Source: Flavobacteriales bacterium (GTDB lineage: Bacteria > Bacteroidota > Bacteroidia > Flavobacteriales_F > PHOS-HE28). From it: a stretch of 64,000 nucleotides of DNA. A program made the position numbers and the translations under genes. Below the pieces are notes generated by a model. That model was not told where the DNA came from. It saw only the letters and a list, made by a program, of their open reading frames with translations, and searched no databases. The stretch lies in assembly GCA_018057455.1 (NCBI GenBank), contig JAGPDT010000006.1, positions 2,272 through 66,271 on the forward strand, written 5' to 3'. This document shows, piece after piece, positions 5,047-24,905 of this stretch. How positions within the stretch are numbered: the stretch's first letter is position 1; each line of letters begins with the position of its first letter.

Positions 5047-5823
5047 CTACCGGCTGCGGATCTCCTTGAGGGCGATCCGGAAGAAGGCGAGGTCATCCAC
5101 GAAATACCGCCGGAACATGCGCTTGGGTTCGGAAAGGAACCGGTGGAGGAATTCCAGGCCCAGCTTTTGCCAAATCCGCGGTGCACGTTGTTTCAATCCG
5201 GCATGGAACTCAAAGCTGGCACCGAGCAACAGGAACAAGGGCATCGGCTGTGCGGCGCCCCTCAGCCGTTCGACCAAGGCCAATGCCAAGCGCTCTTGTT
5301 TGGGGAATCCCAAGCCCAGGAACACCAACGGCACAGGCCGCGCCATGAGTTCATCCATCACGGCATCCACCACGCTTCCCTCGGCTTTCGCATCCGCGAT
5401 GGAATAGAATGGTGGCACCGTCCAGCACATGGCCTGGTTCTCCTTCTTCAATGCTTCCCCGATGGCCTCGTTGGCCAACACCATGAACACCGGTGCCTGC
5501 CGCTGGGCCAATTCCTTCCACAAGGCCGGGAACAGGTCGCTGCCCGCCAGCCGCGCCGGGAGTGCCTTTCCTTTCCTCAGCTTGCTGACCCACACGATCG
5601 GCTGCCCGTCGGGCAGTACGTAGCGCGCCTGGCTGATCCGTTCCAACAAGGCTACATGCTCCGCACGGTGAAGTTTAACGACCTGGTCCACGTTCGGTGT
5701 GCTCAGCAAAGGCAGCTCCCCGGCTTGCAGGGGCTGCAGGGGCCAGGCCAAGGCTTCCTGGATCACTGGACCATGATCGGCTGCGGCGATGAACGGCAGC
5801 CCGAACAATTCCACGCGCTCCAT
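5047..5823 (-). CDS. WecB/TagA/CpsF-family (GT26) glycosyltransferase
   Basis: 258 aa. Contains VFLGLGFPKQERLA and a C-terminal basic tail typical of TagA/WecG-type enzymes. Its ATG overlaps the stop of the upstream sulfotransferase by 1 nt. Confidence 0.8.
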   Translation of the reverse strand: MERVELFGLPFIAAADHGPVIQEALAWPLQPLQAGELPLLSTPNVDQVVKLHRAEHVALLERISQARYVLPDGQPIVWVSKLRKGKALPARLAGSDLFPALWKELAQRQAPVFMVLANEAIGEALKKENQAMCWTVPPFYSIADAKAEGSVVDAVMDELMARPVPLVFLGLGFPKQERLALALVERLRGAAQPMPLFLLLGASFEFHAGLKQRAPRIWQKLGLEFLHRFLSEPKRMFRRYFVDDLAFFRIALKEIRSR

Positions 5824-6842
5824 CAGGCTTGCTTGAGCCTGCGCCCCAACGTGTTCGCCACGTTGCGCATGCGCCCCAGGTTAAGGGCAAAAGCACCGAT
5901 CAGTTTGAAGGGAAAGCGAAGCCAGGCGGCCATCAGGCTGAGCGCCCCGGGCGAAACATCGGCCATTACATAGCCTTGCTCCGCCATACGGCTGCCGGAG
6001 GTGCGCTGGCAGATGGCCACCTCGGTGTGGTCCAGGCCCTTTTTCCAGCTCTCGCCGCGGTCCGTGCGGATCCCTTTCTTCGTATGGTCGTCCATGGCGC
6101 TGGAGCTGCCCGCATGCGGCACCTCCAACATGGCCGGTTCATAAGGAATGCCCACCACTTCGCAGATCTTGCGCATGGTGGCTTCCGGGCTGGTGGTCAG
6201 GTCCTCAAAGCGGATGCCCACTACATCAGGATCGCCGGCATGGCGCTTGGCCGCGTCGAAGCTGGAGTTCCACAGGCGCGCAATGGTGTAGGGATGGTAG
6301 TTCATGCGCAGCCTGCGCACTTCTTTGTCGGGCATGCCGGCCATGCCCAGGTCCTTGCGCATCCACTTGCGCTTCTGGGAAAGCAATACGGCCCGTGGAT
6401 CGCGGTACATCACAATGACCTTGGCACCGGGGAAGTGGCGCTTGACCTCGGCGATGTAGAAGATGTTCTGCGGTGTTTTCTCGCACGGTATCCGCTTGCC
6501 GTTCAAACGCGTCTCGTACGCCATGAAACCGGCATACACGTCCTTACGGTCGGCCTTTGGAGGCAATCCATCCAGCATCTGCTGCACGTCCGCATCGAAC
6601 TTGCCCGGCACCACTTCGGCGAAAAATCCATCGCGCTGCCGTGTGGTCAGCTTGGTGAGCAGCTCTTTGGCAGCGGCTTCATCCATCGGCTTGCCGTCGT
6701 CCGCCGGCGCCCAATACGTACCGTAGAAATGCGGTTCATTGATGCCGTGCACCAAGGAATGGTTGTTCATCACCCGCAGCATCATGGTGGTGCCGCTGCG
6801 TGAGTTGCCGACGATGAAGATGGGGCCTGTTGGTCCGGTCAT
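5823..6842 (-). CDS. sulfotransferase (Sulfotransfer_3-like)
   Basis: N-terminal PAPS 5-prime-phosphosulfate loop FIVGNSRSGTTMM and a 3-prime-phosphate motif MYRDPRAVLLSQ. The ATG at 6842 forms an ATGA overlap with the upstream stop (6839-6841). The track start at 6869 is an upstream extension. Confidence 0.75.
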   Translation of the reverse strand: MTGPTGPIFIVGNSRSGTTMMLRVMNNHSLVHGINEPHFYGTYWAPADDGKPMDEAAAKELLTKLTTRQRDGFFAEVVPGKFDADVQQMLDGLPPKADRKDVYAGFMAYETRLNGKRIPCEKTPQNIFYIAEVKRHFPGAKVIVMYRDPRAVLLSQKRKWMRKDLGMAGMPDKEVRRLRMNYHPYTIARLWNSSFDAAKRHAGDPDVVGIRFEDLTTSPEATMRKICEVVGIPYEPAMLEVPHAGSSSAMDDHTKKGIRTDRGESWKKGLDHTEVAICQRTSGSRMAEQGYVMADVSPGALSLMAAWLRFPFKLIGAFALNLGRMRNVANTLGRRLKQA

Positions 6843-7846
6843 GCCTGCTGCTTCTTGGGCCCCCACCACTGGAGCAGATCCACGCCCATCAGGCGGGAGA
6901 GCCGTTCAACATCCTGTTCGTAGTACGACCACACGGCCGCGGCCTGGTCGGCCGGCAAGGTGGGCATCTGCTTGCGTGAATACAGCATTTCCTTGAAGCC
7001 ACCGCGCAGCCGGCGCGGCACCAGGGCCTTCACCGTGCTGATGGCACCGCTCCGCACCAGCAGGCGGTTGAGCAAGGCGTTGCGTGGGACCGCCGCTTCA
7101 TTGAACTTGCCCGACAGGTCCATCGCTTCCATCGGCGCTACGCCAATGGTGGAGAACAAGTGCCGCATGGTGGCCATGGGATCCTCCTTGAACCGTTCAT
7201 GGAGCAAGATATGCACTTGTTCCTTGGGGAACAAGGCCAAGTAGCGTTCCACCTGTTCCGCGTACCGGCCCAACGCCAGGTATTGGTGATTGACGCCCCA
7301 GCCCTTCCGGGCGCGCTTGTCGTCCTGTTCAACCTCCTTGAGGAAGTCCTGCTCAAGGGTCTTCCCCTCGCGCAAATTCATGATGTATTGCGACCATGCA
7401 CGTTGTACCGGGTCCCGTAGCATGAAGATGATCCGGGACTTGGGGCTTGCCGCATGGATGGCCTTGGCTGCCGAGGGACATACGGCGTAAGAAGGACAGA
7501 CCTCCCCCACCACTTGGCCGGGGCGTGCATGGGCGAACAGGGCCGCATAGTGGGCCGGATCGGCCACTTGGGCAATGTGCACCACTTCTTTCATGCCCCC
7601 GTGGATGAATTTCCCCACGTCGAGCTTCACGTCCAAGGCATACTCCCGGAGGAAATCACCGGGCCGCATGTCGGCGCGTGCAAAGAAGTTGGTCTCCTTG
7701 ATGGGAGGCAGGTGGATCCCCGGGTGGCGGTCCAGCAGGTTGTACAATGCGGTGGTTCCGCCTTTCACCACGCCCACCACCAGAAAATCCGGGCAGAACG
7801 CGGTCTTGGCCTCCTCCTTGTCCGGCGTTGGTACGGTTGGGTTCAT
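6839..7846 (-). CDS. sulfotransferase (Sulfotransfer_1 / heparan-sulfate-3-O-sulfotransferase-like)
   Basis: Contains FLVVGVVKGGTTALYNLLDRHPGIHLPPIKETNFF and MLRDPVQRAWSQY. ATG start verified. Confidence 0.8.
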   Translation of the reverse strand: MNPTVPTPDKEEAKTAFCPDFLVVGVVKGGTTALYNLLDRHPGIHLPPIKETNFFARADMRPGDFLREYALDVKLDVGKFIHGGMKEVVHIAQVADPAHYAALFAHARPGQVVGEVCPSYAVCPSAAKAIHAASPKSRIIFMLRDPVQRAWSQYIMNLREGKTLEQDFLKEVEQDDKRARKGWGVNHQYLALGRYAEQVERYLALFPKEQVHILLHERFKEDPMATMRHLFSTIGVAPMEAMDLSGKFNEAAVPRNALLNRLLVRSGAISTVKALVPRRLRGGFKEMLYSRKQMPTLPADQAAAVWSYYEQDVERLSRLMGVDLLQWWGPKKQQA

Positions 7847-8213: not shown

Positions 8214-8951
8214 ATGGTGATAAGTGACAAGCACCGGTTCGTTTTCGTGAACCTTCCGCAAACGGCCAGCACCGCCATCTCACGGGAGTTGGTGGACCAA
8301 TATGAGGCCCGCGAGTTCTGCTTCAAACATGCCCTGTACCGCACGGATTACCTGAAGGCGGCCAATGCGGAGCAGAAGAAGTACAGGGTGATCTCCGGCC
8401 TGCGCAACCCCATGGAGATCACGTTGAGCACCTACTTCAAGGTGCGCAGCGACCATGAAGGGCGCTACAGCGACACCAAGGCGAACAAGATCCAGCACGG
8501 TTTCCTGCGCAAGCACATCATGCTTTGGTGGAACGGCCGGAGCAACCGGGAGATCAACGAGAAGGGCCTGTCCTTCGCTGCATGGTTCATGCGCAACCAC
8601 CGCGTGCCCTATGCCAGCTGGAGCATCCTGGACCACCATCGCTTCGACAAGGTGATCCGGTTCGAGCACCTCCAGGCGGATTTCGCCGATGCGTTGCGCA
8701 AGTTGGGGGTGGAACAGACGCGGCCACTGCCCGTTGGCAACAAGACGGCCAAGGAAGGCAAGGACATCGCCACCTACTTCGATACCGAGGCTTCCCGCCG
8801 CCGGGCCAAGTTCGTGTTCGGCCCGTACATGCAGCAGTTCGGCTACGCCTTTCCCCCTGCATGGGACCACATCCAAGTGCCCGCTTCCGCCGTTGCGATG
8901 TACCGGGCCTTGAACGTGCTGCGCCGGTTCTTCTGGCTCTACCTCCGGTGA
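8214..8951 (+). CDS. sulfotransferase family-2-like protein with Gln in place of the usual loop Lys
   Basis: From the ATG at 8214: MVISDKHRFVFVNLPQTASTAISREL, GLRNPMEITLSTYF, and a C-terminal IRFEHLQADFADALRKLG...GNKT...FGPYMQQFGYAF. This pattern resembles bacterial and animal carbohydrate sulfotransferase family 2. The track start at 8085 is an unsupported extension. Confidence 0.7.
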   Translation: MVISDKHRFVFVNLPQTASTAISRELVDQYEAREFCFKHALYRTDYLKAANAEQKKYRVISGLRNPMEITLSTYFKVRSDHEGRYSDTKANKIQHGFLRKHIMLWWNGRSNREINEKGLSFAAWFMRNHRVPYASWSILDHHRFDKVIRFEHLQADFADALRKLGVEQTRPLPVGNKTAKEGKDIATYFDTEASRRRAKFVFGPYMQQFGYAFPPAWDHIQVPASAVAMYRALNVLRRFFWLYLR

Positions 8952-8961
8952 GGCCCGCTCA

Positions 8962-10284
8962 TCAAGCCGCCGGGGCCGGAAGGACCTGCCCGTTGATGCG
9001 CGAATAGTGGTGCATCAGGCCCAAGAGCAGCAAGGCCTGGCCCGTGTTCTGCGTCAGTTGGCCATTGGTGAGCGAATCGAGGAATAAGGCCAGCAGCAGG
9101 AACTTGCAGGTCATGAAGAGCAGGTCACCATTCCTGCCCTTCACCCGCAGCATGTAGATGGCCGCGATGAAGAACAGCAGGTACAGCAGGGCCATGCCCG
9201 GGTAGCCATAGATGAAGGCCAAGCCCAACCAGCCCACGTCCGCCGGGTAGAAGAACCCGAAATACTTGTCGTAACCCTCCTCGCTCCATTCGCGGCTGAT
9301 CCGCCCGTTGCCCACCCAGGGATGCTGCTTGATCTGGCGTTCGGCAATGGCCACTTCCACGGTGCGTACCGAAACCTCCGTGGCGCCGGAGGTGCTGCCC
9401 ATCACCGTGTGCATGGCGTCCATGAACATGAACCGGTACTGCTCCACCTTGTCCGGGGCCAGCAGTACGAAGAGCAGCCCGGCGAGCACCGCCGGCAGCA
9501 CCACGGGAAGCACCATGCGCGCGATGCGTTTCAAGGGCACATGCAGCAGGACAACGCCGGCCATGCCGATGGCCGTGACGGCCATGGAGGTGCGGTCCAT
9601 GCGGAACACCACCACATAGGCCGCAAAGAGCAGTGCATAGCCCAAGTCGGTCCACCGGTTGCGCAGGAACGCCCGTGCCGCGTAGTAGATGGCACCGAAA
9701 TAGATGGCGCTCATGTTGAAGCGGTAGTACGCCCCCCCGCCCTTTACGTCGTTGGCCCCGGCCAAGGGCGTGTCCTGGTAGGGGCCCGGATCGATGAACA
9801 AGGTGGCGAAGTAGAAATAGATCAGGCAGGTCCACGCCATGAGCACCAATGCGCGTTCCAATTGGGCCAAGGTGATCCACCCCTTGCGCAACCAATGGTA
9901 GATGGCCAGTACGCCGGACAGCAGGTAATAGTCCTTGAAGGCGATGATGCCCCAGATCACCGGCTGGCCGAACTCGCGTTTGGCACCGATCGCCGGAATG
10001 ATGGGCAACAACAGCAGCAGCAGTACATACGTTTCGAAGCCATTGATGGTCCAATCATCCATCAACGCACGCTGGATGATGCGCCACCCCAGCCATAGCA
10101 CCAACAAGGCCACCAGGGCCAGCTCGGCCACACCGATGGGCAGGCTCATGTGGCTCACGGTCAACATGCGCCAGACCAACGTGACGAGCACGGTGAGCAG
10201 GCCCACCGTGAGGCCATGGTACCTGAACGGCCAAGGCAAGGGGCTGGGCCCGGGATCCTGCTTGGCGGGGATCACCAACGCCAT
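8962..10284 (-). CDS. polytopic membrane protein, O-antigen polymerase/ligase-like (Wzy-type candidate)
   Basis: 440 aa, with many hydrophobic segments and one larger loop. It sits between sulfotransferase genes in a Wzx-containing operon. The assignment rests on context and topology, not on a specific motif. Confidence 0.55.
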   Translation of the reverse strand: MALVIPAKQDPGPSPLPWPFRYHGLTVGLLTVLVTLVWRMLTVSHMSLPIGVAELALVALLVLWLGWRIIQRALMDDWTINGFETYVLLLLLLPIIPAIGAKREFGQPVIWGIIAFKDYYLLSGVLAIYHWLRKGWITLAQLERALVLMAWTCLIYFYFATLFIDPGPYQDTPLAGANDVKGGGAYYRFNMSAIYFGAIYYAARAFLRNRWTDLGYALLFAAYVVVFRMDRTSMAVTAIGMAGVVLLHVPLKRIARMVLPVVLPAVLAGLLFVLLAPDKVEQYRFMFMDAMHTVMGSTSGATEVSVRTVEVAIAERQIKQHPWVGNGRISREWSEEGYDKYFGFFYPADVGWLGLAFIYGYPGMALLYLLFFIAAIYMLRVKGRNGDLLFMTCKFLLLALFLDSLTNGQLTQNTGQALLLLGLMHHYSRINGQVLPAPAA

Positions 10285-11186
10285 AGAGCGAACAGGTCTT
10301 TGGAAAGGTGGGCGGAGAGCTGTTCCACATCAGCCCGGTAGATGTCGCGCAGCCAGGCCCGGTCTTCGGGCTGAAGCCCGCCACCGTTCTGCATGTTCCG
10401 TTCCTTCATGTACTTCCTGGCCTGGCGTCGCTTCTCTTCGGGCACAAGCATACGCAACAGCGGGCGCACAATGCCTTTCACCGGGTTCTCCGTGGTGATC
10501 AACCGCTGCAGGGCGCGGAACCGCGGCTGCCCCGATCGGTTCTTGGCCTCCACCGGCGGCAGCGCCACCTTGGCCACCCCCACCAGGTCGAACACCCCCT
10601 TGATGAACCCCTCGGGGTCCTTGCGCAGGTCCTCGAAAAAGAAGACACGGGTGTGCGGGAAGGCCTCCAAATAGGCTTTCACTTGGGCGGCGTAGCGCCC
10701 CATGGCGATGTGGTGCCACATGAAGTCCCAGTTCTGCGCGGTACGCGCGGGCTCCTCGGCGATGGATTCCCGGAAGCCGAGCGGTTCATGGGTGTCCTTC
10801 ACGAAGTGCATGTACGACGACCATGCGCGCTCCACGGGATCGCGCAAAACGATGCCGATGCGGGTGTCCGCGCCCAGCACGGCCTTGATGCGGGGAATGG
10901 CCGTTTGGTGGTGGTACAGATAGCCCGTGCCCACCTCCACGGTGACCTTGCCTTCAAGACCGGTGTACAAACCGCGATAGGCCGCTTCCGATGTGACGAT
11001 GGTGCCCGGATCGCGCTGCATGGGATAGGCCAAGCGGCCTTGGCCCATGTGCTCATGGTCGAAGAAGAAGGATTCCTTGGTGGGGATGGCCACCTTGGGG
11101 TGCGCGCGCAGCGCATGCTCCATGGTGGTGGTGCCCGCTTTGGCGGTGCCCACGAACAAGCAACTGGGGAGGTTCTCACGCATCAT
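10272..11186 (-). CDS. sulfotransferase (Sulfotransfer_1-like)
   Basis: Contains LFVGTAKAGTTTMEHALRAHPKVAIPTKESFFF and VLRDPVERAWSSYMH. The ATG at 11186 forms an ATGA overlap with the upstream stop. The track start at 11195 is a GTG. Confidence 0.8.
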   Translation of the reverse strand: MMRENLPSCLFVGTAKAGTTTMEHALRAHPKVAIPTKESFFFDHEHMGQGRLAYPMQRDPGTIVTSEAAYRGLYTGLEGKVTVEVGTGYLYHHQTAIPRIKAVLGADTRIGIVLRDPVERAWSSYMHFVKDTHEPLGFRESIAEEPARTAQNWDFMWHHIAMGRYAAQVKAYLEAFPHTRVFFFEDLRKDPEGFIKGVFDLVGVAKVALPPVEAKNRSGQPRFRALQRLITTENPVKGIVRPLLRMLVPEEKRRQARKYMKERNMQNGGGLQPEDRAWLRDIYRADVEQLSAHLSKDLFALWRW

Positions 11187-12109
11187 CGGGCACACCAGTG
11201 GCCAAGGTCCCTCCCGATGGCCCGGGAAAGGCGGTCCACGTCGGCTTTGTAGTAGGCGTTCAACATTTCGCGCGCCACCTGCGGCATTGCCGGCCGGTCC
11301 AGCGCCTTCTTCAGCACGCGGTCCCGTTGGGCCCGGGCCTTGTTGCGCAAGCCAGCGGGCAAAAGATGGGAAAGGGAACGGACCAGCGGATTACGCCGGA
11401 TGGTGCGTACCAGTCCCCGGTTCTTGGGCACACCGCCGGGATTGGACTGCACCTGTTCCACTGCGCAAGTGGCCGCACCCGCCCTCTTGCAGATATCGTC
11501 AAAAGTCGCTTGCAGGTCCTTCAGGTCTTCCAGCAAGTACACCTTGAAATTGGGGAACGCCGCCTGGAAGCGCTCCACGGCTTCGGCATACAGGCCATAG
11601 CCGAGGTAGTCGAATCCCCAACGGTCCCATTTGCGCCGTTCCACCACGGCGGGGTCCACGGCTTGTTCGAAAGGCAAGTCTTCATGGCCGTTCCGCACCA
11701 GGTAGAGCCAATGCGAATAAGCCCGTTCCACGGGGTCGCGAAGGATGGCGCTCAGGGCCAATTGGCCCGCTTTTTCACCGTAGGTCCCTTGGAGGTGCGG
11801 GATGGCCGTGCCATGCCGGTACAGGTACGAGGTGGAACAATCGGCGATGAGGGCCTGGGGCGGTGCTGGTGCGTACAGGGCGGCATAGTCCTGCGGCCTC
11901 CAGACCAGTGTTTTCACGAAAGCCGCATCCCTGTATGGCGGCTGCTGGGCATTGAAGGAGAAGAAGTGCGGTTCCTTCTTGGCCATGGGAAGGAAGATGC
12001 CCGGATGCCTGGTGAACTGGTGGGCAATGGAGGTGGTTCCGCTCTTGGCCGCCCCCACGAGCAGGATGTCCGGCAACCGCACCGTCGCGTTATTCAGGCT
12101 GATCTGCAT
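11183..12109 (-). CDS. sulfotransferase (Sulfotransfer_1-like)
   Basis: Contains ILLVGAAKSGTTSIAHQFTRHPGIFLPMAKKEPHFF and ILRDPVERAYSHWLY. ATG start verified. Confidence 0.8.
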   Translation of the reverse strand: MQISLNNATVRLPDILLVGAAKSGTTSIAHQFTRHPGIFLPMAKKEPHFFSFNAQQPPYRDAAFVKTLVWRPQDYAALYAPAPPQALIADCSTSYLYRHGTAIPHLQGTYGEKAGQLALSAILRDPVERAYSHWLYLVRNGHEDLPFEQAVDPAVVERRKWDRWGFDYLGYGLYAEAVERFQAAFPNFKVYLLEDLKDLQATFDDICKRAGAATCAVEQVQSNPGGVPKNRGLVRTIRRNPLVRSLSHLLPAGLRNKARAQRDRVLKKALDRPAMPQVAREMLNAYYKADVDRLSRAIGRDLGHWCAR

Positions 12110-15136: not shown

Positions 15137-15187
15137 CCGCCGGATCTGAAAGGCCGCCCCCAACGGCCGGACCAAAAAGCAACACAC

Positions 15188-19559: not shown

Positions 19560-20932
19560 ACTACCTCGTCTTCCTGCCCCTGGTACTGATCATGTACCAC
19601 CTGATCCCCAAGACGTACCGGTGGGTGATGCTCTTGGCGGTCAGCTACTATTTCTACATGAGCTGGAAACCGTTCTTCGCGGTGTTCATGCTCTTTTCCA
19701 CCATCGTGGACTACTGGTCCGCGATCCGCATGGAATCCGCACCGGACAAGAAGACCCGGCGCCTGTACATGGCCGCCAGCATGGCGGGCAACCTGGGCCT
19801 GCTGTTCTTCTTCAAGTACATGAACTTCTTCGCCTACAACGCCGAGGTGCTGTTCGGCGGGCTGGGGGTGTACTATGATTCGCCCGTGCTCAACATCATC
19901 CTGCCCTTGGGCATCTCCTTCTACACCTTCCAGAGCCTGAGCTACACCTTCGACGTGTACAAGGGCAAGGACAAAGCCGAGCACCACTTCGGCTACTTCG
20001 CGCTGTACGTGAGCTACTTCCCCCAGCTGGTCGCCGGCCCCATCGAACGCGCGGGCAACCTCATCCCTCAATTGCGTGCCAACATACCGGCCACCAACGA
20101 CGACATCCGCTACGGCATCAACAAGATCCTCCTGGGCTTCTTCAAGAAGGTGGTGGTGGCCGACAACATCGGCCCCTTCGTGGACCAGCTCTACGGCAAC
20201 GTGCCCAGCGCCTCGGGCCTGCAATACGCCATCGCCGCGGTGCTCTTCGCCGTGCAGTTGTTCTGCGATTTCAGCGGCTATACGGACATTGCCATCGGTT
20301 CGGCCCGCCTGATGGGCGTGCGGATCATGGAGAACTTCGACCGGCCCTTCCTCACCACCAACCTCAACGCCGCCTGGGCCAAGTGGCACATCTCCCTCAC
20401 CTCCTGGATCGGCGACTATGTATACCGGCCCTGGGTGCGCAGCAGGCCCGACCGCATCAAGCTCATCACCATCGCCGTGTTCGTCATCATCGGCTTCTGG
20501 CACGGGCCCACGTGGAACTTCGTGCTCTTCGGCCTCTTCCACGGCGTAGCCATGGTGCTCCAACGTGAGTATATCCGCATCAAACCGCTCAAAGCATTCA
20601 ACAACAGTGCCCCGATGAAGGTGTTCTGGACGATCTGGAACAGCAGCCTGATCATCTTCTCCTGCATCTTCTTCCGCAACAGCGCCACGGATTCCTTCAC
20701 GGTGATCCACCACATGTTCACGGACTTCCACCTCTCCATGGCCGACCTGCGCTCGGGCTACTTCTCCCAGATGGTCCTGGCCATCTTCTTCGCCCTCCTC
20801 GCCGTGGCCACTACCTTGCTTCCCCGCAGCCTGCGCTTCAAGCATGACAACCTCTACGTGCTGGGCATGCTGCTGGTGATCTTCATCTTTGGCTCGGATT
20901 CCATGAACCAGTTCATCTACTTCCAATTCTGA
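19541..20932 (+). CDS. MBOAT-family membrane-bound O-acyltransferase (AlgI/DltB-like)
   Basis: MLFNSVDYLVFLPLV start, LGISFYTFQSLSYTFDVY, YVSYFPQLVAGPIER and IGFWHGPTWNFVLFGLFHG (containing the conserved His). The track start at 19466 is an upstream extension. Confidence 0.85.
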   Translation: MLFNSVDYLVFLPLVLIMYHLIPKTYRWVMLLAVSYYFYMSWKPFFAVFMLFSTIVDYWSAIRMESAPDKKTRRLYMAASMAGNLGLLFFFKYMNFFAYNAEVLFGGLGVYYDSPVLNIILPLGISFYTFQSLSYTFDVYKGKDKAEHHFGYFALYVSYFPQLVAGPIERAGNLIPQLRANIPATNDDIRYGINKILLGFFKKVVVADNIGPFVDQLYGNVPSASGLQYAIAAVLFAVQLFCDFSGYTDIAIGSARLMGVRIMENFDRPFLTTNLNAAWAKWHISLTSWIGDYVYRPWVRSRPDRIKLITIAVFVIIGFWHGPTWNFVLFGLFHGVAMVLQREYIRIKPLKAFNNSAPMKVFWTIWNSSLIIFSCIFFRNSATDSFTVIHHMFTDFHLSMADLRSGYFSQMVLAIFFALLAVATTLLPRSLRFKHDNLYVLGMLLVIFIFGSDSMNQFIYFQF

Positions 20933-20938: not shown

Positions 20939-21961
20939 ATGAAGACCCTGGCACGCAACTCCGCCTTCTTCATCATCGCCTTCATCGGGGTGGCCCTTGG
21001 CATGGACCAGGTGGTGCAGCGGTGGTTCATCTTCAACGACCCCGCCAGCAACCCTTCCAAGATTCGGCGCCTGGTGGAAAGCGAGGACCCCGGGGAGATC
21101 CCCGTCTTCGGCAGCTCCAAGGGCCGCAGCGCCTTCATCCCGGACAGCTTGGCGCCCACGGTGTACAACTACTCCATGGAGCGTGGCAACTTCGACATCG
21201 TGGAATTCCTGCTGGAGACCGAACTGGCCAAACCCCGTAAAACCCCGGTGTTGCTCGAGTTCAACCACCGCTACTTCATCCATGCGCCCAGCTACACCAT
21301 CGACATGGCCACCTTCGCGCCCAACGTGGGGCTGCCCGGGGTGAGCGAATTCCTGGAGAAAAGCGGACGCCTGGAAACCCGGTTCATGATCCCCGGCCTG
21401 CGCTACTTCGGAAGCATTGAAGGCTATGTGCGCAAAGGCATGGACGAGGACGGCACCACCTCCAGGCAATCCGTGAAGGGCGGCTTGTTCACCGAACGTG
21501 CCGTAGGCCGCGAACAAATGGCCAACCAAGTGGCCGCCCGTGAACGGTCCATCGCTCTGCGCCAAAAGCTCGAGCACGCCAAGAACGATGTGAAGGAGGC
21601 CATCTCGGCCGAGGACCGCCACCGCCTGGTGGCGCTCAATTCGCTGCTCCTGTTCAACGCCCCCGAAGAGCGTGTGGCCCGCTTCGAGGAGCTGGTGGCC
21701 AGCCGCCCGGACCGCCAGATCCTGATGGCCTACACCCCCCAACACTGGAGCGAACTCAAGGGCATCGCCAACTTCCACGAGATCACCGCCCTGTTCGCCG
21801 AACTGCAGAAGCGCCACCCCAACCTGCATTTCTACGACTACTCCCACATGCAATTGCCGGACAGCGCCTACAAGAACAGCGCCCACCTGAACAATACCGG
21901 CGCAAGGGCGTTCTGCGAGGCATTCAAGCGCGACGCGGGGCAATACCTCCAAGCCCCTTGA
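20939..21961 (+). CDS. single-pass membrane protein, possible SGNH/DltD/AlgJ-like partner of the MBOAT
   Basis: 340 aa with an N-terminal TM segment (FFIIAFIGVALG), FGSSKG (a possible nucleophile Ser) and C-terminal DSAYKNSAHLNNTG (a possible Asp/His pair). Position directly after an MBOAT gene is the main argument, and the motifs are weak. Confidence 0.4.
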   Translation: MKTLARNSAFFIIAFIGVALGMDQVVQRWFIFNDPASNPSKIRRLVESEDPGEIPVFGSSKGRSAFIPDSLAPTVYNYSMERGNFDIVEFLLETELAKPRKTPVLLEFNHRYFIHAPSYTIDMATFAPNVGLPGVSEFLEKSGRLETRFMIPGLRYFGSIEGYVRKGMDEDGTTSRQSVKGGLFTERAVGREQMANQVAARERSIALRQKLEHAKNDVKEAISAEDRHRLVALNSLLLFNAPEERVARFEELVASRPDRQILMAYTPQHWSELKGIANFHEITALFAELQKRHPNLHFYDYSHMQLPDSAYKNSAHLNNTGARAFCEAFKRDAGQYLQAP

Positions 21962-22027
21962 TTCCCACGAATATTAGACCGACCTTTGCACCCCGAAAAC
22001 CGGGCGTTTCCCCAGCCTGTAGCCCCC

Positions 22028-22633
22028 ATGAGCACCCCCGCCAACATCCACCCGGTCTTTGACCGCCTGCTGCAACGGGCGGACAAGGAGGCCCTGCTTC
22101 GCCAGCGCGGTTGTGCCGTGTGGATGACCGGGCTGAGCGGCAGCGGGAAGAGCACCATCGCCATCGCCTTGGAACGCAAGCTCCATGCCGCCGGCCATTT
22201 CACCGCCGTGCTGGACGGGGACAACATCCGCACGGGCATCAACAACAACCTGGGCTTCAGCGAGGCCGACCGCACGGAGAACATCCGGCGCATCGCCGAG
22301 GTGGCCAAGCTCTTCGTGCAGAACGGCACGGTGGTCCTCTGCAGCTTCGTAAGCCCCACGATCGCCATCCGCGAACAGGCCCGGGGCATCATCGGTGCCG
22401 CCGACTTCCTCGAGATCTTCGTGGACACCCCGTTGGAAGAGTGCGAACGGCGCGACGTAAAAGGCCTGTATGCCAAGGCCCGGGCCGGTGAGCTGAAGGA
22501 TTTCACGGGCATCAGCGCACCGTTCGAGCCCCCACCGGCGCCAGCCTTGCGCCTGCCCACCACCGGCCGCAGCGTGGAGGCCACCTCTGAAGAACTTTTC
22601 CTGCACTTGGTGCAACGCATTAAACGGAACTGA
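22028..22633 (+). CDS. cysC: adenylyl-sulfate (APS) kinase
   Basis: Contains [53 protein letters not shown] and CSFVSP. The ATG at 22028 is preferred over 21986. Confidence 0.9.
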
Positions 22634-22643
22634 ACAACAAGCC

Positions 22644-23549
22644 ATGCATTCCTATCGCCTCACACACCTGAAGGAACTCGAAAGCGAGAGCATCCACATC
22701 CTGCGCGAAGTGGCCTCGCAGTTCGACAATCCCACCCTGTTGTTCAGCGGTGGCAAGGACAGCATCCTGTGCTTCCACCTGGCCCGCAAGGCCTTTTACC
22801 CGGCCAAGGTGCCCTTCCCCCTGCTGCACGTGGACACCGGCCACAACTTCCCCGAGGCCATCGAATTCCGCGACCAGCTCGTGAAGGAGCATGGCGCCCA
22901 CCTGCTCGTGGGCAGCGTGCAGAAGAGCATCGATGAAGGCAAGGTGCAGGAAGAAACCGGCTACTACGCCAGCCGGAACAAGCTCCAGACACACACCTTG
23001 CTGGAGTCCATTGAGACCCACAAGATCGATTGCGCCATCGGCGGGGCCCGCCGCGATGAGGAAAAGGCCCGTGCCAAGGAGCGCGTGTTCAGCCACCGCG
23101 ATGACTTCGGCCAGTGGGACCCCAAGAACCAGCGCCCCGAGCTGTGGAACCTGTACAACGGCCGCAAGCGCCCGGGCGAACACTTCCGGGCCTTCCCCAT
23201 CAGCAACTGGACCGAGATGGACGTGTGGCAGTATATCCTCCTGGAGAAGATCCCCATCCCCACCATCTACTTCAGCCATGTGCGCGAAGTGTTCGAGCGC
23301 GACGGCGTGATCTACGCCAACTCCCCCTTCATGCGCTTGAAGCCGGAGGAAAAACCATTCATGAAGCGCGTACGCTTCCGCACGGTGGGCGACATGAGCT
23401 GCACCGGCGCCGTGGATTCCCCGGCCGCCACTTTGGAGGAGATCATCGAGGAAGTGGCCTCCACCCGCACCACCGAGCGCGGCAGCCGCATGGACGACAA
23501 GCGCAGCGAGGCCGCCATGGAGGACCGTAAGAAGGAAGGTTATTTCTAA
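22644..23549 (+). CDS. cysD: sulfate adenylyltransferase subunit 2
   Basis: 301 aa. Contains LRELESESIHILREV, LLFSGGKDS, HVDTGHNFPE, RRDEEKARAKERVFS and ISNWTEMDVWQYI. Confidence 0.92.
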   Translation: MHSYRLTHLKELESESIHILREVASQFDNPTLLFSGGKDSILCFHLARKAFYPAKVPFPLLHVDTGHNFPEAIEFRDQLVKEHGAHLLVGSVQKSIDEGKVQEETGYYASRNKLQTHTLLESIETHKIDCAIGGARRDEEKARAKERVFSHRDDFGQWDPKNQRPELWNLYNGRKRPGEHFRAFPISNWTEMDVWQYILLEKIPIPTIYFSHVREVFERDGVIYANSPFMRLKPEEKPFMKRVRFRTVGDMSCTGAVDSPAATLEEIIEEVASTRTTERGSRMDDKRSEAAMEDRKKEGYF

Positions 23550-23633
23550 GCGGCACGCATTCCAGAACCACCACCGCCCAGGGGATGGCGGCCCCGGCCG
23601 ATCCCGCACACCAAACGCATCACAGACCAGAGA

Positions 23634-24905
23634 ATGAACTCAACCAACGGATACTTGGACATGGACCTGCTCCGCTTTACCACGGCGGGCAGCGTGGACG
23701 ATGGCAAAAGCACGCTGATCGGGCGATTGCTCTATGACAGCCGTTCGATCTTCGACGACCAGCTGGAAGCCGTGGAAAAGGCCAGCTCCAAACGCGGCAC
23801 CGGCGAGGTGGACCTGAGCCTGCTCACCGACGGCCTGCGCGCAGAGCGCGAACAGGGCATCACCATCGATGTGGCCTACCGCTACTTCGCCACGCCCCGG
23901 CGCAAATTCATCATCGCCGACACCCCGGGCCACATCCAGTACACCCGCAACATGGTCACCGGTGCCAGCACGGCCAACCTGGCGATCATCCTCGTGGACG
24001 CCCGCAAAGGGATCCAGGAGCAGACCAACCGCCATGCCTTCATCGCCTCCCTGCTGGGCATCCCCCACATCGTGTTCTGCATCAACAAGATGGACCTGGT
24101 GGACTACGACGAGGCCGTCTTCAAGGACATCCAGCACCAACTGGAGGACTTCAGCAGCAAGCTGGACGTCCGCGACCTGAACTTCATCCCCATCAGCGCA
24201 CTCAAAGGCGACAACGTGGTGCACCGCAGCAGCCGCATGGACTGGTACCAGGGCAGCACCCTGATGTACATGCTGGAGAACATCCATATCTCAGGCGACC
24301 GCAACCACATCGACCGGCGACTGGCGGTGCAGCATGTGATCCGGCCCATGACCGACGAATGGCATGACTACCGCGGCTTTGCGGGCCAGATCAACGCGGG
24401 CATCTTCCGTACCGGCGACACCGTGCAGGTGTTGCCCAGCGGCTTCCAGAGCGTGATCAAATCCATCCACCTGGGGGAACATGAAGTGAACGAAGCGTTC
24501 GCCCCGCAAAGCGTCACCGTGACCCTGCAGGACGAGATCGACATCAGCCGTGGCGACATGATCGTGGGCCCCAACAACCTGCCCCACAGCAGCCAGGACG
24601 TGGACGTGATGCTCTGCTGGCTGAACGAACGACCCTTGCAGCCCAACGGCAAGTACGTGGTGAAGCACACCAGCCGCGATGCCCGCTGCATGGTGAAGGA
24701 GGTGGCCTACAAGATGGACATCAACACCCTGCGCAAGTTCCCGGAGGACAACAAGGCCATTGGCATGAACGACATTGGCCGGGTGCATTTGCGCACCACC
24801 GTGCCGTTGCACTTCGACGCGTACAGCCGCAACCGCTTCACCGGAAGCCTGATCTTGGTGGACGAGGCCACCAACGAGACCGTGGCGGCCGGCATGATCG
24901 TCTAG
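23634..24905 (+). CDS. cysN: sulfate adenylyltransferase subunit 1 (GTPase)
   Basis: Contains LRFTTAGSVDDGKSTLIGRLL, EREQGITIDVAYRYF, DTPGHIQYTRNM and INKMDL (G1-G4 boxes). There is no fused APS-kinase domain. Confidence 0.9.
   Translation: MNSTNGYLDMDLLRFTTAGSVDDGKSTLIGRLLYDSRSIFDDQLEAVEKASSKRGTGEVDLSLLTDGLRAEREQGITIDVAYRYFATPRRKFIIADTPGHIQYTRNMVTGASTANLAIILVDARKGIQEQTNRHAFIASLLGIPHIVFCINKMDLVDYDEAVFKDIQHQLEDFSSKLDVRDLNFIPISALKGDNVVHRSSRMDWYQGSTLMYMLENIHISGDRNHIDRRLAVQHVIRPMTDEWHDYRGFAGQINAGIFRTGDTVQVLPSGFQSVIKSIHLGEHEVNEAFAPQSVTVTLQDEIDISRGDMIVGPNNLPHSSQDVDVMLCWLNERPLQPNGKYVVKHTSRDARCMVKEVAYKMDINTLRKFPEDNKAIGMNDIGRVHLRTTVPLHFDAYSRNRFTGSLILVDEATNETVAAGMIV

What the first reader, a model, noticed from the sequence alone, without database searches (positions are those of the whole stretch)
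5047..24905. A 20-kb Wzx/Wzy polysaccharide locus with five sulfotransferases and its own PAPS-synthesis module, predicting a heavily sulfated surface glycan
Seen in sequence:
- One contiguous cluster, arranged as two divergent operon sets plus one inverted gene, encodes an initiating polyprenyl-phosphate sugar-phosphate transferase, a Wzx flippase, a Wzy-like polymerase, Wza, and a Wzc-like co-polymerase.
- It has only two glycosyltransferases (GT26 and GT4) and five proteins carrying sulfotransferase PAPS-binding loops.
- It also has an MBOAT acyltransferase with a putative partner.
- The operon ends with cysC, cysD and cysN.

Established knowledge:
- CysDN plus CysC make PAPS, the universal donor for sulfotransferases.
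- Dedicated PAPS modules sit next to sulfotransferases in the rhizobial Nod-factor system (nodPQ/nodH).
- Sulfated bacterial exopolysaccharides are rare; the best genetic example I know is the cyanobacterial synechan (xss) cluster.

Inference:
- This locus makes a multiply sulfated, O-acylated capsule, EPS or O-antigen, that is, a glycosaminoglycan-like or algal-polysaccharide-like polyanion.
- I am not aware of a characterised system of this kind in Bacteroidota.
- No cysH, cysI or cysJ is adjacent, which fits a PAPS-for-sulfation role rather than an assimilation role.
Basis: partly seen in the sequence, partly recalled or inferred. Interest (0 to 1): 0.8.

Follow-up and report, generated by a model that had tools for sequence, protein, structure and literature searches.

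The report
Sulfated capsule/slime gene cluster in Flavobacteriales
An uncultured Flavobacteriales bacterium carries a complete surface-polysaccharide assembly line with five sulfate-adding enzymes next to the genes that make their sulfate donor. It most likely makes a densely sulfated slime or capsule, which is known from a few other bacteria but not yet described in this phylum.

Summary
Window 5047-24905 encodes 17 real genes:
- the assembly and export set: an initiating sugar-phosphate transferase, Wzx, a Wzy-type protein, Wza and a Wzc-like co-polymerase;
- only two glycosyltransferases (GT26 and GT4);
- five soluble sulfotransferase-fold proteins;
- an MBOAT with a partner predicted to have a DltD-like fold;
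- cysC-cysD-cysN.

Four sulfotransferases pass Pfam cut-offs. The fifth (ST5) fails Pfam but matches a solved bacterial sulfotransferase at E 3e-30. ST3 is the weakest and has an atypical PAPS loop.

The locus is not an assembly artefact. It recurs colinearly in other assemblies, and the same gene set, again with five sulfotransferases, recurs rearranged at about 40% identity in other Flavobacteriales MAGs.

"Its own PAPS module" is only partly right. cysCDN is an ancestral Bacteroidota unit that normally sits between deoC and GcvH-SprA and appears to keep its own promoter box. The polysaccharide cluster lies inserted beside it. This cysC-type unit is the sulfation type: it is linked to cysQ and a sulfate symporter and never to cysH in 49 loci.

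Clusters combining PAPS genes with sulfotransferases are already published for Vibrio and Cobetia, and a Wzx/Wzy cluster with sulfotransferases for cyanobacterial synechan. This is therefore a new variant of a known kind, with no chemistry behind it yet.

The parts
5047..5823 (-). GT26 (WecG/TagA/CpsF-family) glycosyltransferase. It probably adds the second sugar to the lipid-linked unit.
   Evidence: Pfam Glyco_tran_WecG 126.7 bits. NCBIfam TIGR00696 99.6 bits, above its cut-off of 69.
5823..6869 (-). ST1: sulfotransferase of the Sulfotransfer_3 type, with 5'-PSB loop GNSRSGTT and 3'-PB motif RDPRAVLLS.
   Evidence: Pfam PF13469 106.6 bits. PDB CurM sulfotransferase and TPST hits. Motifs are invariant in orthologues from L089, L090 and L091. 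No hydrophobic segment.
6839..7846 (-). ST2: sulfotransferase resembling heparan-sulfate 3-O-sulfotransferase and PDB 3rnl.
   Evidence: Pfam PF13469 70.5 bits and PF00685 49.9 bits. PDB 3rnl E 4.5e-39; HS 3-OST E 2.5e-12; NDST. K-GTT, KE and R-P..R..S are invariant.
8214..8951 (+). ST3: divergent Sulfotransfer_2-type protein and the single inverted gene. It has an atypical PAPS loop (P-Q-T-A-S-T, Gln where Lys/Arg is usual).
   Evidence: Pfam PF03567 23.3 bits against a cut-off of 22. 67 homologue clusters, named 'sulfotransferase family 2'. AF2 pLDDT 91. The top ~45 Foldseek PDB hits are all sulfotransferases, but weak (best E 7e-3, TM 0.37). K38, H39, R64 and P66 are invariant; N65 and S72 are nearly invariant.
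8962..10284 (-). Wzy-type repeat-unit polymerase. Membership of the O-antigen-ligase superfamily means WaaL cannot be excluded by sequence.
   Evidence: Pfam Wzy_C 34.3 bits, above its cut-off of 31.7. Multiple (roughly eight or more) hydrophobic segments. Conserved between ST genes in L089, L090, L091 and L093.
10272..11195 (-). ST4: 3rnl/HS-3-OST-like sulfotransferase.
   Evidence: Pfam PF00685 43.8 bits. PDB 3rnl E 5.5e-43; HS 3-OST-3A E 4e-15. Motifs invariant.
11183..12109 (-). ST5: 3rnl/HS-3-OST-like sulfotransferase. It is below the Pfam threshold but full-length homologous to a solved sulfotransferase.
   Evidence: Pfam only 16.8 bits. PDB 3rnl E 3.3e-30 over residues 9-305. It aligns to HS 3-OST-1 across the PSB Lys and the E-x-H catalytic motif. 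Motifs invariant.
12090..13487 (-). Wzx flippase (MOP superfamily).
   Evidence: Pfam Polysacc_synt 61.4 bits, plus MurJ and MatE. Multiple TM segments.
13451..14869 (-). Initiating polyprenyl-phosphate hexose-1-phosphate transferase (WcaJ/EPS_sugtrans type).
   Evidence: Pfam Bac_transf 201.5 bits. NCBIfam TIGR03025 358.8 bits, above its cut-off of 295.55. The WcaJ model scores 377.1 against a cut-off of 410.75.
14870..15187 (.). Divergent intergenic region between the two operon sets; presumed promoter region.
   Evidence: Read directly from the sequence. There is one sigma-70-like match at 15106-15134, but the scan as a whole is not above shuffled expectation.
15188..16036 (+). [quoted passage not shown]
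   Evidence: Pfam Poly_export 51.2 bits and SLBB_2 33.8 bits.
16033..18324 (+). Wzc-like polysaccharide co-polymerase with two TM regions. Its C-terminal ATPase domain is degenerate and it has no Tyr-rich tail.
   Evidence: No Pfam hit. NCBIfam Wzc residues 5-340 at E 2.5e-11. Orthologues in L089 and L091 hit Wzz/GNVR (L089 also AAA_31 weakly). The alignment shows GANGKE in place of GEGKS/T and loss of the Walker B Asp. TM regions at 25-61 and 501-538.
18321..19559 (+). GT4 retaining glycosyltransferase.
   Evidence: Pfam Glyco_trans_1_4 86.9 bits.
19541..20932 (+). MBOAT membrane O-acyltransferase (DltB/AlgI-like).
   Evidence: Pfam MBOAT 83.8 bits. Its best NCBIfam hit is DltB at 148 bits, below the cut-off of 375.
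20939..21961 (+). Membrane-anchored extracytoplasmic partner of the MBOAT, from a family with no Pfam model and a predicted DltD/SGNH-like fold.
   Evidence: 55 homologue clusters, all annotated as hypothetical. 0 of 45 members hit a Pfam family. AF2 pLDDT 92. The top 12 Foldseek hits are all DltD, best E 1.5e-5, prob 1.0. G58-S59-S60, D308 and H316 are invariant. It always lies directly after the MBOAT.
21962..22027 (+). Spacer before cysC that carries a conserved promoter-type box (GACCTTTGCACCCCGAAA).
   Evidence: The block is conserved with L087 while the flanks have diverged. It lines up with TAnnTTTG-type boxes upstream of cysC in L007, L008, L010, L016, L052, L063 and L089. That TAnnTTTG is the Bacteroidota -7 promoter element is from my own knowledge.
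22028..22633 (+). CysC, APS kinase.
   Evidence: Pfam APS_kinase 216 bits. NCBIfam TIGR00455 231.7 bits, above its cut-off of 138.7.
22644..23549 (+). CysD, ATP sulfurylase small subunit.
   Evidence: NCBIfam NF009214 450.3 bits, above its cut-off of 413.
23634..24905 (+). CysN, ATP sulfurylase GTPase subunit. It is not fused to CysC.
   Evidence: NCBIfam TIGR02034 566.6 bits, above its cut-off of 336.1.

Best explanation
This is a Wzx/Wzy-dependent locus for an exported, multiply O-sulfated and O-acylated polysaccharide (capsule or slime) of an uncultured Flavobacteriales bacterium.

Proposed mechanism, with each step marked shown or inferred:
1. CysDN and CysC convert sulfate to PAPS in the cytoplasm. 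Enzyme identity is shown by equivalog-level matches.
2. The WcaJ-type transferase puts a hexose-1-phosphate on undecaprenyl phosphate. GT26 and GT4 extend it to a short, probably three-sugar, repeat unit. This is inferred from gene content.
3. Up to five soluble sulfotransferases sulfate different hydroxyls of the lipid-linked unit on the cytoplasmic face, because PAPS exists only there. This is inferred. That the five proteins are soluble with conserved catalytic motifs is shown.
4. Wzx flips the highly anionic unit. The Wzy-type protein polymerises it. The kinase-dead Wzc-like co-polymerase and Wza export it. This is inferred by analogy with group-1 capsules and synechan.
5. The MBOAT and its DltD-like partner O-acylate the polymer outside the cytoplasm. 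This is inferred from the fold and from strict gene pairing.

cysCDN is an ancestral, probably separately promoted, PAPS unit beside which the cluster sits. It is not a module that evolved as part of the cluster.
For: - Gene identities.
- Overlapping or near-abutting reading frames point to operons: ST1/GT26, ST2/ST1, Wzy/ST4, ST4/ST5, ST5/Wzx, Wzx/PGT, Wza/Wzc, Wzc/GT4 and GT4/MBOAT.
- The sulfotransferases are interleaved with Wzx and Wzy, so their substrate is the polymer unit.
- None of the five sulfotransferases has a hydrophobic segment.
- K-GTT, the Lys-Glu catalytic pair and R-P..R..S are invariant in 11 ST2/4/5-type sequences spanning 25-47% identity.
- The same gene set with five sulfotransferases is kept at about 40% identity, but rearranged, in L089 and L091. 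There it is flanked by cysQ plus an SLC13 sulfate symporter on one side; in L089, cysC-cysD lies at the other end.
- Fully colinear copies exist in L087 and L090.
- Of 49 Bacteroidota loci with cysC-cysD(-cysN), none has cysH within 10 kb, 25 have cysQ and 12 have the symporter. Of 31 loci without cysC, 11 have cysH.
- In Bacteroides thetaiotaomicron, a PAPS cluster next to a sulfotransferase (BT_0411-0415, including the sulfate importer BT_0412) is proposed to supply it, and that sulfotransferase (BT_0416) is experimentally shown (PMC9417993).
- Vibrio and Cobetia capsules with solved sulfated structures carry cysNDC plus sulfotransferases in their clusters, and the authors call this combination a hallmark (PMC11641403, PMC11766843).
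Against: - There is no chemical, expression or genetic evidence. The organism is known only as MAGs.
- ST3 is marginal: Pfam just above the cut-off, Foldseek E 7e-3, and Gln in place of the PSB Lys/Arg.
- Five genes do not prove five sulfates per unit. Paralogues may be alternative, partial or inactive.
- cysQ and a sulfate importer are not in the window.
- Co-transcription of cysCDN with the cluster is not shown, and a separate promoter box is likely.
- Among the 80 cysD loci, sulfotransferases lie within 10 kb in only 5 of 49 cysC-type loci against 0 of 31 others, which is not significant on its own.
- The Wzy_C family also contains WaaL ligases.
- Further glycosyltransferases could be encoded elsewhere in the genome.
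Confidence: 0.72

Rival explanations
1. The product is a sulfated O-antigen or lipo-oligosaccharide attached to lipid A-core, not a free capsule or EPS. In this reading the Wzy_C protein acts as a WaaL-type ligase or as an O-unit polymerase feeding LPS.
For: - Pfam Wzy_C (PF04932) covers both ligases and polymerases, and the match is only 34.3 bits.
- The polymerase-specific NCBIfam model scores only 15.5 bits.
- Sulfated O-polysaccharides are known in marine Gram-negatives (my own knowledge; the Vibrio paper also proposes a sulfated O-antigen).
Against: - A Wza (OPX) and a Wzc-type PCP-2a-like co-polymerase lie in the same locus and stay conserved with it across all relatives examined. Both are hallmarks of capsule/EPS export, not of the LPS pathway.
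- No Wzz-only chain-length regulator or core-synthesis genes are adjacent.
Confidence: 0.12
2. The cysCDN genes are simply the cell's general (possibly assimilatory) sulfate-activation genes, and their adjacency to the polysaccharide cluster is an accident of insertion site. The cluster has no dedicated PAPS supply.
For: - cysCDN occupies the same ancestral position (deoC | cysCDN | GcvH-SprA) in relatives that lack the cluster there: L007, L023, L029 and L046. deoC is 76% identical to that of L007.
- A conserved promoter-type box persists before cysC.
- GC content of the cluster, cysCDN and the flanks is the same, 0.61-0.63.
Against: - The cysC-type unit is never linked to cysH in 49 loci, but is often linked to cysQ and a sulfate symporter. 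APS kinase is needed only for PAPS users.
- Independent rearranged versions again place sulfotransferase clusters next to the PAPS unit: L089 and L091 (cysC-cysD seen only in L089), and L052 and L063.
- Even under this rival the sulfotransferases would still draw on this PAPS. It weakens 'dedicated module', not 'sulfated glycan'.
Confidence: 0.3
3. The sulfotransferases act mainly on something other than the polymer repeat unit, such as a glycolipid, a small metabolite or a protein O-glycan, and only happen to be embedded in the locus. Alternatively, several of them are inactive paralogues, so the polymer is at most lightly sulfated.
For: - Characterised Bacteroidota sulfotransferases act on sterols and small molecules (PMC9417993, PMC13449962).
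- ST1's nearest solved relatives are polyketide and tyrosine sulfotransferases.
- ST3 has an atypical PAPS loop.
Against: - The genes overlap Wzx, Wzy and GT26 reading frames.
- Orthologues of ST1, ST2, ST4 and ST5 are retained beside Wzx and Wzy at about 40% identity with invariant catalytic residues.
- ST2, ST4 and ST5 are closest to carbohydrate (heparan sulfate) sulfotransferases.
Confidence: 0.15

Closest known systems
Synechan (xss) cluster of Synechocystis sp. PCC 6803 (PMC8205485)
   Same: Both are Wzx/Wzy-dependent EPS clusters with sulfotransferase genes inside the cluster and a PCP. The logic is the same: a lipid-linked unit is sulfated in the cytoplasm and then flipped.
   Different: - xss has 8 glycosyltransferases and 2 sulfotransferases (8 sugars: 2 sulfates). 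It has no PAPS genes and no OPX gene in the cluster, carries its own regulators (XssQRS) and is plasmid-borne in a cyanobacterium.
- This locus has 3 sugar transferases and 5 sulfotransferases, Wza in the cluster, cysCDN adjacent, an MBOAT/DltD-like pair, no regulator, and is chromosomal in Flavobacteriales.
- Sequence relatedness to XssA and XssE was not tested.
Sulfated capsule gene clusters of Vibrio sp. KMM 8419 and Cobetia marina KMM 1449 (PMC11641403, PMC11766843)
   Same: Sulfotransferase genes and PAPS-synthesis genes (cysN, cysD, cysC; in Cobetia also cysQ and a sulfate permease) lie in one polysaccharide locus. The polymers are structurally proven to be sulfated, and in Vibrio also O-acylated.
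   Different: - Those are ABC-transporter (kpsMTED/kpsSC) capsules of Gammaproteobacteria, with 70-80-gene loci, nucleotide-sugar operons and 1-3 sulfotransferases.
- This locus is Wzx/Wzy/Wza type, compact (17 genes), has five sulfotransferases and no nucleotide-sugar genes.
Bacteroides thetaiotaomicron BT_0411-BT_0416 PAPS cluster plus sulfotransferase (PMC9417993)
   Same: Same phylum. A PAPS cluster with a sulfate importer lies next to a sulfotransferase that uses the PAPS. The matching unit in Flavobacteriales relatives is cysQ / SLC13 sulfate symporter / cysC-cysD-cysN.
   Different: - The acceptor there is cholesterol and other small molecules, with a single sulfotransferase and no polysaccharide machinery.
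- In this window cysQ and the transporter are not adjacent.
Rhizobial NodPQ/NodH (and LpsS, KpsS) sulfation systems
   Different: The acceptor is a lipo-chito-oligosaccharide signal or LPS/K-antigen, and there is one sulfotransferase. NodQ is a CysN-CysC fusion, whereas here CysN (423 aa) and CysC are separate.
DltB/DltD D-alanylation pair
   Same: An MBOAT whose best curated match is DltB is followed directly by a membrane-anchored protein whose predicted fold best matches DltD.
   Different: No DltA ligase or DltC carrier protein is present in the window. The MBOAT scores far below the DltB cut-off, and the partner has no sequence-level match to any Pfam family. The setting is a Gram-negative polysaccharide locus, so O-acetylation or another acylation of the glycan is more likely than D-alanylation.

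Membership tests
Wzx/Wzy-dependent capsule/EPS pathway (group-1-like) | Initiating polyprenyl-phosphate sugar-1-phosphate transferase | tested here: met
   Bac_transf 201.5 bits. TIGR03025 358.8 bits, above its cut-off.
Wzx/Wzy-dependent capsule/EPS pathway (group-1-like) | Wzx flippase | tested here: met
   Polysacc_synt 61.4 bits, above its cut-off of 28.2.
Wzx/Wzy-dependent capsule/EPS pathway (group-1-like) | Wzy polymerase, as distinct from a WaaL ligase | tested here: inconclusive
   Wzy_C 34.3 bits, above its cut-off of 31.7, but the family includes ligases. The polymerase-specific model TIGR04370 scores only 15.5 bits.
Wzx/Wzy-dependent capsule/EPS pathway (group-1-like) | OPX (Wza) exporter and PCP co-polymerase | tested here: met
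   Poly_export plus SLBB_2. The Wzc N-terminal half matches at E 2.5e-11, and orthologues hit Wzz/GNVR.
BY-kinase Wzc (PCP-2a with active tyrosine autokinase) | Walker A (GxxGxGK[ST]), Walker B Asp and a C-terminal Tyr cluster | tested here: not met
   The window protein has GANGKE, no Walker B Asp and a single Tyr in its tail. L089 and L091 keep GEGKS/T and VIVD but also lack a Tyr cluster.
PAPS-dependent sulfotransferase superfamily | Family-level profile or structure match for each of the five proteins | tested here: met
   - ST1, ST2 and ST4 are well above Pfam cut-offs.
- ST3 is 1.3 bits above its cut-off, and its top Foldseek hits are all sulfotransferases, though weak.
- ST5 is below the Pfam cut-off but matches PDB 3rnl at E 3e-30.

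PAPS-dependent sulfotransferase superfamily | 5'-phosphosulfate-binding loop with Lys/Arg, and 3'-phosphate-binding R...S motif | tested here: met
   - ST2, ST4 and ST5: K-[GS]-GTT and LR(D/N)P..R..S are invariant in 11 sequences.
- ST1: SRSGTT and RDPRA..LS are invariant.
- Exception, ST3: the 3'-PB motif R64-N-P...S72 is conserved, but the loop reads P-Q-T-A-S-T. Across the family this position is Gln in 30 of 44 sequences and Arg in 11 of 44.
PAPS-dependent sulfotransferase superfamily | Catalytic activity with PAPS on a defined acceptor | not testable with these tools
   This needs enzyme assays.
PAPS-synthesis module (CysDN + CysC) | ATP sulfurylase small and large subunits and APS kinase at equivalog level | tested here: met
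   NF009214 450.3 bits (cut-off 413); TIGR02034 566.6 bits (cut-off 336.1); TIGR00455 231.7 bits (cut-off 138.7).
PAPS-synthesis module (CysDN + CysC) | Dedicated to sulfation: a second copy separate from the assimilatory genes, or no cysH in the genome | not testable with these tools
   The source genome was not returned by the genome scan (best hit 76% identity), and only 64 kb is visible. Indirect evidence: cysC-type loci never carry cysH (0 of 49) and often carry cysQ or a symporter.
PAPS-synthesis module (CysDN + CysC) | Accompanying PAP phosphatase CysQ and a sulfate importer, as in Cobetia, Bacteroides, L089 and L091 | tested here: not met
   tblastn with cysQ and SLC13 from L007 and L089 finds nothing in the window.
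ABC-transporter (Kps-type) sulfated capsule clusters (Vibrio/Cobetia type) | kpsMT ABC transporter and kpsSC Kdo-linker genes | tested here: not met
   No such domains were found among the genes of the locus or the window that were scanned.
Dlt D-alanylation system | DltA ligase and DltC carrier together with DltB and DltD | tested here: not met
   Only an MBOAT (DltB model 148 bits against a cut-off of 375) and a protein with a DltD-like fold are present. No AMP-binding or carrier protein was found among the window genes scanned.

The most novel reading that the evidence does not exclude
A conserved Flavobacteriales system builds a very short (about three-sugar) repeat unit carrying three to five sulfate esters plus O-acyl groups. 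That would be a bacterial polymer with a charge density at or above that of heparin or lambda-carrageenan, and it would require Wzx to flip a poly-sulfated lipid-linked unit. Such organisms would then be producers, not only degraders, of sulfated glycans. They would also be candidate sources of the unexplained 'sulfated glycosaminoglycan-like' signal reported in environmental and sludge EPS.
Probability: 0.2. Interest if true: 0.8.

Novelty: new variant of a known kind. Interest (0 to 1): 0.55.

Why it matters
- **Role of the phylum.** Bacteroidota, and Flavobacteriales in particular, are treated as the main degraders of sulfated algal and host glycans. One mat metagenome study found no sulfotransferase genes in its Bacteroidetes MAGs (PMC9723792).
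- **Recurrence.** This locus recurs in many uncultured Flavobacteriales. Its 340-aa marker protein has 55 sequence clusters and ST3 has 67. It consistently carries about five sulfotransferases for two or three glycosyltransferases. Members of this order therefore probably also make densely sulfated polymers.
- **A testable genetic handle.** Who makes the sulfated polymers detected in biofilm and granular-sludge matrices is an open question, and the literature says bacterial pathways are 'not well known' (PMC10483923, PMC7356697). This locus offers a concrete candidate.
- **An enzyme resource.** It also provides a compact set of soluble bacterial carbohydrate sulfotransferases related to heparan-sulfate 3-O-sulfotransferases, which could be useful for enzymatic sulfation.
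- **Limit.** The underlying principle is already published, and nothing here has been shown chemically.

Tried and rejected
- **Second cysDN copy or cysH in the source genome.** The single genome-contig scan with CysD returned only relatives at 76% identity or less, so this could not be answered.
- **ST3 against PDB by sequence.** Nothing meaningful came back. I had to use a predicted structure, and the fold match is consistent but weak.
- **Pfam for the Wzc-like protein and the 340-aa protein.** No hits. Scanning 45 family members of the 340-aa protein at E<=1 also gave nothing.
- **Terminator and sigma-70 promoter scan of 5001-25000.** Not above shuffled expectation: 22 terminator-like sites against 17 +/- 4.4, and 3 promoter-like sites against 4.5. 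No terminator-like site lies between the 340-aa gene and cysC. This neither proves nor excludes read-through.
- **Enrichment of sulfotransferases within 10 kb of cysC-type loci.** 5 of 49 against 0 of 31. The direction is right, but the numbers are too small to carry weight.
- **Source environment.** A literature search for the assembly and run accessions found nothing. My recollection that related MAG locus tags come from activated sludge is unverified, and I did not use it.
- **Recent horizontal acquisition.** Rejected. GC and third-codon-position GC match the flanks.
- **Assembly artefact.** Rejected. The sequence is identical in independent assemblies.
- **Glycosaminoglycan-like backbone or N-sulfation.** There are no deacetylase, amino-sugar or uronic-acid genes in the locus, so I make no such claim.

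Full report
**1. What is in the sequence**

The window is 62% G+C, so long spurious ORFs are common. I used third-codon-position GC to choose gene models. Every gene of the proposed locus has GC3 of 0.77-0.90, the same as the surrounding housekeeping genes.

Pfam and NCBIfam identify these genes:
- GT26/WecG at 5047-5823 (-).
- ST1 at 5823-6869 (-), Sulfotransfer_3 106.6 bits.
- ST2 at 6839-7846 (-), 70.5 bits.
- ST3 at 8214-8951 (+), Sulfotransfer_2 23.3 bits against a cut-off of 22.
- A Wzy_C protein at 8962-10284 (-).
- ST4 at 10272-11195 (-), 43.8 bits.
- ST5 at 11183-12109 (-), only 16.8 bits.
- Wzx at 12090-13487 (-).
- A WcaJ/EPS_sugtrans-type initiating transferase at 13451-14869 (-).
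- On the other strand: Wza (15188-16036), a 763-aa Wzc-like protein (16033-18324), GT4 (18321-19559), MBOAT (19541-20932), a 340-aa protein with no Pfam hit (20939-21961), then CysC, CysD and CysN (22028-24905). All three pass NCBIfam cut-offs.

Most neighbouring reading frames overlap or abut, as expected for operons. The same DNA occurs in two NCBI MAG assemblies labelled Flavobacteriales bacterium and in several independent run assemblies, so it is not a chimera.

The rest of the window is housekeeping: SprA of the type IX secretion system, RuvAB, alternative complex III plus cytochrome oxidase, and IF-2/NusA. It contains no cysH, cysI/J, cysQ or sulfate transporter.

**2. Are the five candidates sulfotransferases?**

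ST2, ST4 and ST5 match the solved sulfotransferase of Alicyclobacillus (PDB 3rnl) over their full length, at E 4.5e-39, 5.5e-43 and 3.3e-30. More weakly, they also match heparan-sulfate 3-O-sulfotransferases, and ST2 additionally NDST. So ST5 is a true member even though it fails the Pfam threshold.

I aligned these three with their eight counterparts from two distant loci. The PAPS 5'-phosphosulfate loop (K-x-GTT), a Lys-Glu pair at the position of the catalytic Glu of 3-OST, and the 3'-phosphate motif (R-x-P..R..S) are invariant.

ST1 belongs to the Sulfotransfer_3 type. Its nearest solved relatives are the CurM sulfotransferase and tyrosylprotein sulfotransferases. Its SRSGTT and RDPRA..LS motifs are invariant in orthologues.

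ST3 is the weak one:
- It has no sequence match in the PDB.
- Its Pfam score is just above the cut-off.
- The AlphaFold model is confident (pLDDT 91), and its top ~45 Foldseek hits are all sulfotransferases, but only at E of 7e-3 or worse and TM about 0.35.
- Its PAPS loop reads P-Q-T-A-S-T, with Gln where Lys or Arg is usual. K38, H39, R64 and P66 are invariant, and N65 and S72 nearly so.

I count ST3 as a probable but unproven enzyme.

None of the five has a hydrophobic segment. They must therefore act in the cytoplasm, where PAPS is made.

**3. The accessory proteins**

The 340-aa protein belongs to a family of 55 sequence clusters. All are annotated as hypothetical and nearly all come from Flavobacteriales MAGs. 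None of 45 members hits any Pfam model. With their alignment, AlphaFold gives pLDDT 92: an N-terminal membrane helix followed by a domain whose 12 best PDB matches are all DltD (best E 1.5e-5, prob 1.0), followed by SGNH esterases. G58-S59-S60, D308 and H316 are invariant.

The MBOAT's best curated match is DltB, though far below the cut-off. The two genes are adjacent in every locus I examined. There is no DltA or DltC, so I read the pair as an extracytoplasmic O-acyl (probably O-acetyl) transferase for the polymer, not as a D-alanylation system.

The Wzc-like protein has the two-TM topology and N-terminal similarity of a polysaccharide co-polymerase. Its distant orthologues hit Wzz/GNVR. In the window, however, the Walker A is GANGKE, the Walker B Asp is gone and there is no tyrosine-rich tail. 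It is a co-polymerase without a working kinase.

**4. The PAPS genes and their history**

I scanned one genome per species with CysD and obtained 80 loci, mostly Bacteroidota. Their identity to the window's CysD was 68-76%.
- In 49 of them cysC lies directly upstream of cysD(-cysN).
- I clustered the flanking ORFs and annotated the recurrent ones. None of the 49 cysC-type loci has a cysH-type PAPS/APS reductase within 10 kb. Twenty-five have an inositol-monophosphatase-family gene, which I read as cysQ, and 12 have an SLC13/CitMHS sulfate symporter.
- Eleven of the 31 cysC-less loci carry cysH, often with an ABC sulfate transporter.

So there are two kinds of unit, and the window has the PAPS-producing kind. 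In Bacteroides thetaiotaomicron a PAPS cluster of this kind (BT_0411-0415) lies next to an experimentally proven sulfotransferase, BT_0416, and is proposed to supply its PAPS (PMC9417993).

The synteny also shows that cysCDN is not part of the polysaccharide cluster by descent. In L007, L023, L029, L046 and others the order is cysQ-(symporter)-aldehyde dehydrogenase-deoC | cysC-cysD-cysN | TonB-GcvH-SprA. The window has deoC (76% identical to that of L007) at 4072-5022 and VanZ-GcvH-SprA after cysN. The 17-kb cluster sits exactly between deoC and cysC.

The 67-nt spacer before cysC keeps an 18-nt block (GACCTTTGCACCCCGAAA). It is conserved with L087 while the flanks differ, and it lines up with TAnnTTTG-type boxes before cysC in relatives. 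That motif is the Bacteroidota -7 promoter element (my own knowledge). cysCDN therefore probably keeps its own promoter. Read-through from upstream is possible, since no terminator-like site intervenes, but it is unproven.

**5. Conservation of the system**

- L087 and L090 (protein identities 59-90%) are colinear with the window from the TonB-dependent receptor and DprA through to SprA.
- L089 and L091 (about 40% identity) carry the same parts list rearranged: cysQ-symporter | Wza-Wzc-GT4-MBOAT-340aa | GT26 (seen in L091)-ST1-ST2-Wzy-ST4-ST5-ST5'-Wzx, followed in L089 by cysC-cysD. That is again five sulfotransferases, with a second ST5 paralogue replacing ST3.
- L052 and L063 have Wzx plus two or three sulfotransferases next to cysQ and cysCD(N).
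- L093 and L094 show further five-sulfotransferase Wzx/Wzy loci in other contexts.
- L088 and L092 keep the Wza-to-340aa module with an ECF sigma factor, but I could not see their sulfotransferase side.

Retention of the same enzymes with invariant catalytic residues over this distance argues for function.

**6. Mechanism**

The best-supported model has five steps.
1. CysDN and CysC make PAPS.
2. The WcaJ-type enzyme, GT26 and GT4 build a short lipid-linked unit. Gene count suggests three sugars, and no nucleotide-sugar genes are present, so the sugars come from common pools.
3. The soluble sulfotransferases decorate the unit on the cytoplasmic face.
4. Wzx flips it, the Wzy-type protein polymerises it, and the co-polymerase and Wza export it.
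5. The MBOAT/DltD-like pair acylates it outside the cytoplasm.

Shown: the protein identities, solubility, motif conservation, gene linkage and synteny. Inferred: the substrate, the number of sulfates, the order of steps and co-transcription with cysCDN.

The ratio of five sulfotransferases to three sugar transferases is the reverse of synechan, which has two sulfotransferases to eight glycosyltransferases and 2 sulfates per 8 sugars. Dense sulfation is therefore plausible, but five genes set an upper bound and are not a measurement.

**7. Comparison with what is known, and novelty**

- A Wzx/Wzy EPS cluster containing sulfotransferases is established for synechan (PMC8205485).
- Polysaccharide clusters containing both cysNDC (plus cysQ and a permease in Cobetia) and sulfotransferases, with NMR-proven sulfated capsules, are published for Vibrio sp. 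KMM 8419 and Cobetia marina KMM 1449. Those authors call the combination a hallmark of sulfated polysaccharide synthesis. These are ABC-transporter capsules.
- Kiritimatiellae (Pontiella) have a putative cluster with one sulfotransferase.
- Four full-text searches found no described sulfated-polysaccharide biosynthesis locus in Bacteroidota. One mat study reported no sulfotransferase in its Bacteroidetes MAGs.

The locus is therefore a new variant of a known kind. It combines Wzx/Wzy/Wza architecture, an adjacent PAPS unit, an unusually high sulfotransferase load and a DltD-like acylation partner, in a phylum known for degrading such polymers.

It is a good genome-mining lead, not a new principle, and nothing has been shown chemically.

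Noticed in passing
window 20939-21961: The 340-aa partner of the MBOAT belongs to a family with no Pfam model: 55 clusters, and 0 of 45 members hit Pfam. Its predicted fold best matches DltD. G-S-S, D308 and H316 are invariant, and the gene is always found directly after an MBOAT gene.
   Followed up: yes
window 16033-18324: The Wzc-like co-polymerase has a decayed ATPase domain (GANGKE, no Walker B Asp) and no tyrosine tail. Its 25%-identity orthologues in L089 and L091 keep the Walker motifs but also lack the Tyr cluster.
   Followed up: partly
window 21962-22027: An 18-nt block (GACCTTTGCACCCCGAAA) before cysC is conserved with L087. It aligns with TAnnTTTG-type boxes upstream of cysC in many relatives, which suggests cysCDN keeps its own promoter.
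   Followed up: partly
window 4072-5022 and 21986; L007, L023, L029, L046: deoC and cysC are direct divergent neighbours in many Flavobacteriales. Here the 17-kb polysaccharide cluster lies between them, and the cysQ, symporter and aldehyde-dehydrogenase genes that precede deoC in relatives are replaced by DprA and a TonB-dependent receptor.
   Followed up: yes
L088 808-4167; L092 995-4207: In more distant relatives an ECF sigma factor and two to three further genes (in L088 one encodes an outer-membrane beta-barrel protein) lie between the initiating transferase and Wza. This suggests a regulated version of the same export module.
   Followed up: no
P0088 (JGI contig, 355 aa): One homologue of the 340-aa protein is called as a single gene that also hits the APS-kinase Pfam model. 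This is either a gene-call fusion or a real fusion of the partner protein with CysC.
   Followed up: no
L093 and L094: Further Wzx/Wzy loci with five sulfotransferase-family genes occur in unrelated genomic contexts. L093 lies next to ribosomal protein genes. L094 has a polysaccharide deacetylase, which could permit N-sulfation.
   Followed up: partly
L090 5762-6676: In the colinear relative, deoC is called as two short ORFs (115 and 163 aa). It may be a pseudogene or a sequencing frameshift.
   Followed up: no
window 37703-39433: A 576-aa protein matches DUF6029 almost end to end (592 bits). Its function is unknown, and it lies near two T9SS-sorted proteins (34460-36862).
   Followed up: no
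window 42788-43489 and 46613-47839: Two well-supported ORFs (GC3 0.83 and 0.89) inside or next to the cytochrome oxidase / alternative complex III gene block have no Pfam match.
   Followed up: no
window 61470-63185: A multicopper oxidase carries a type IX secretion C-terminal sorting domain.
   Followed up: no
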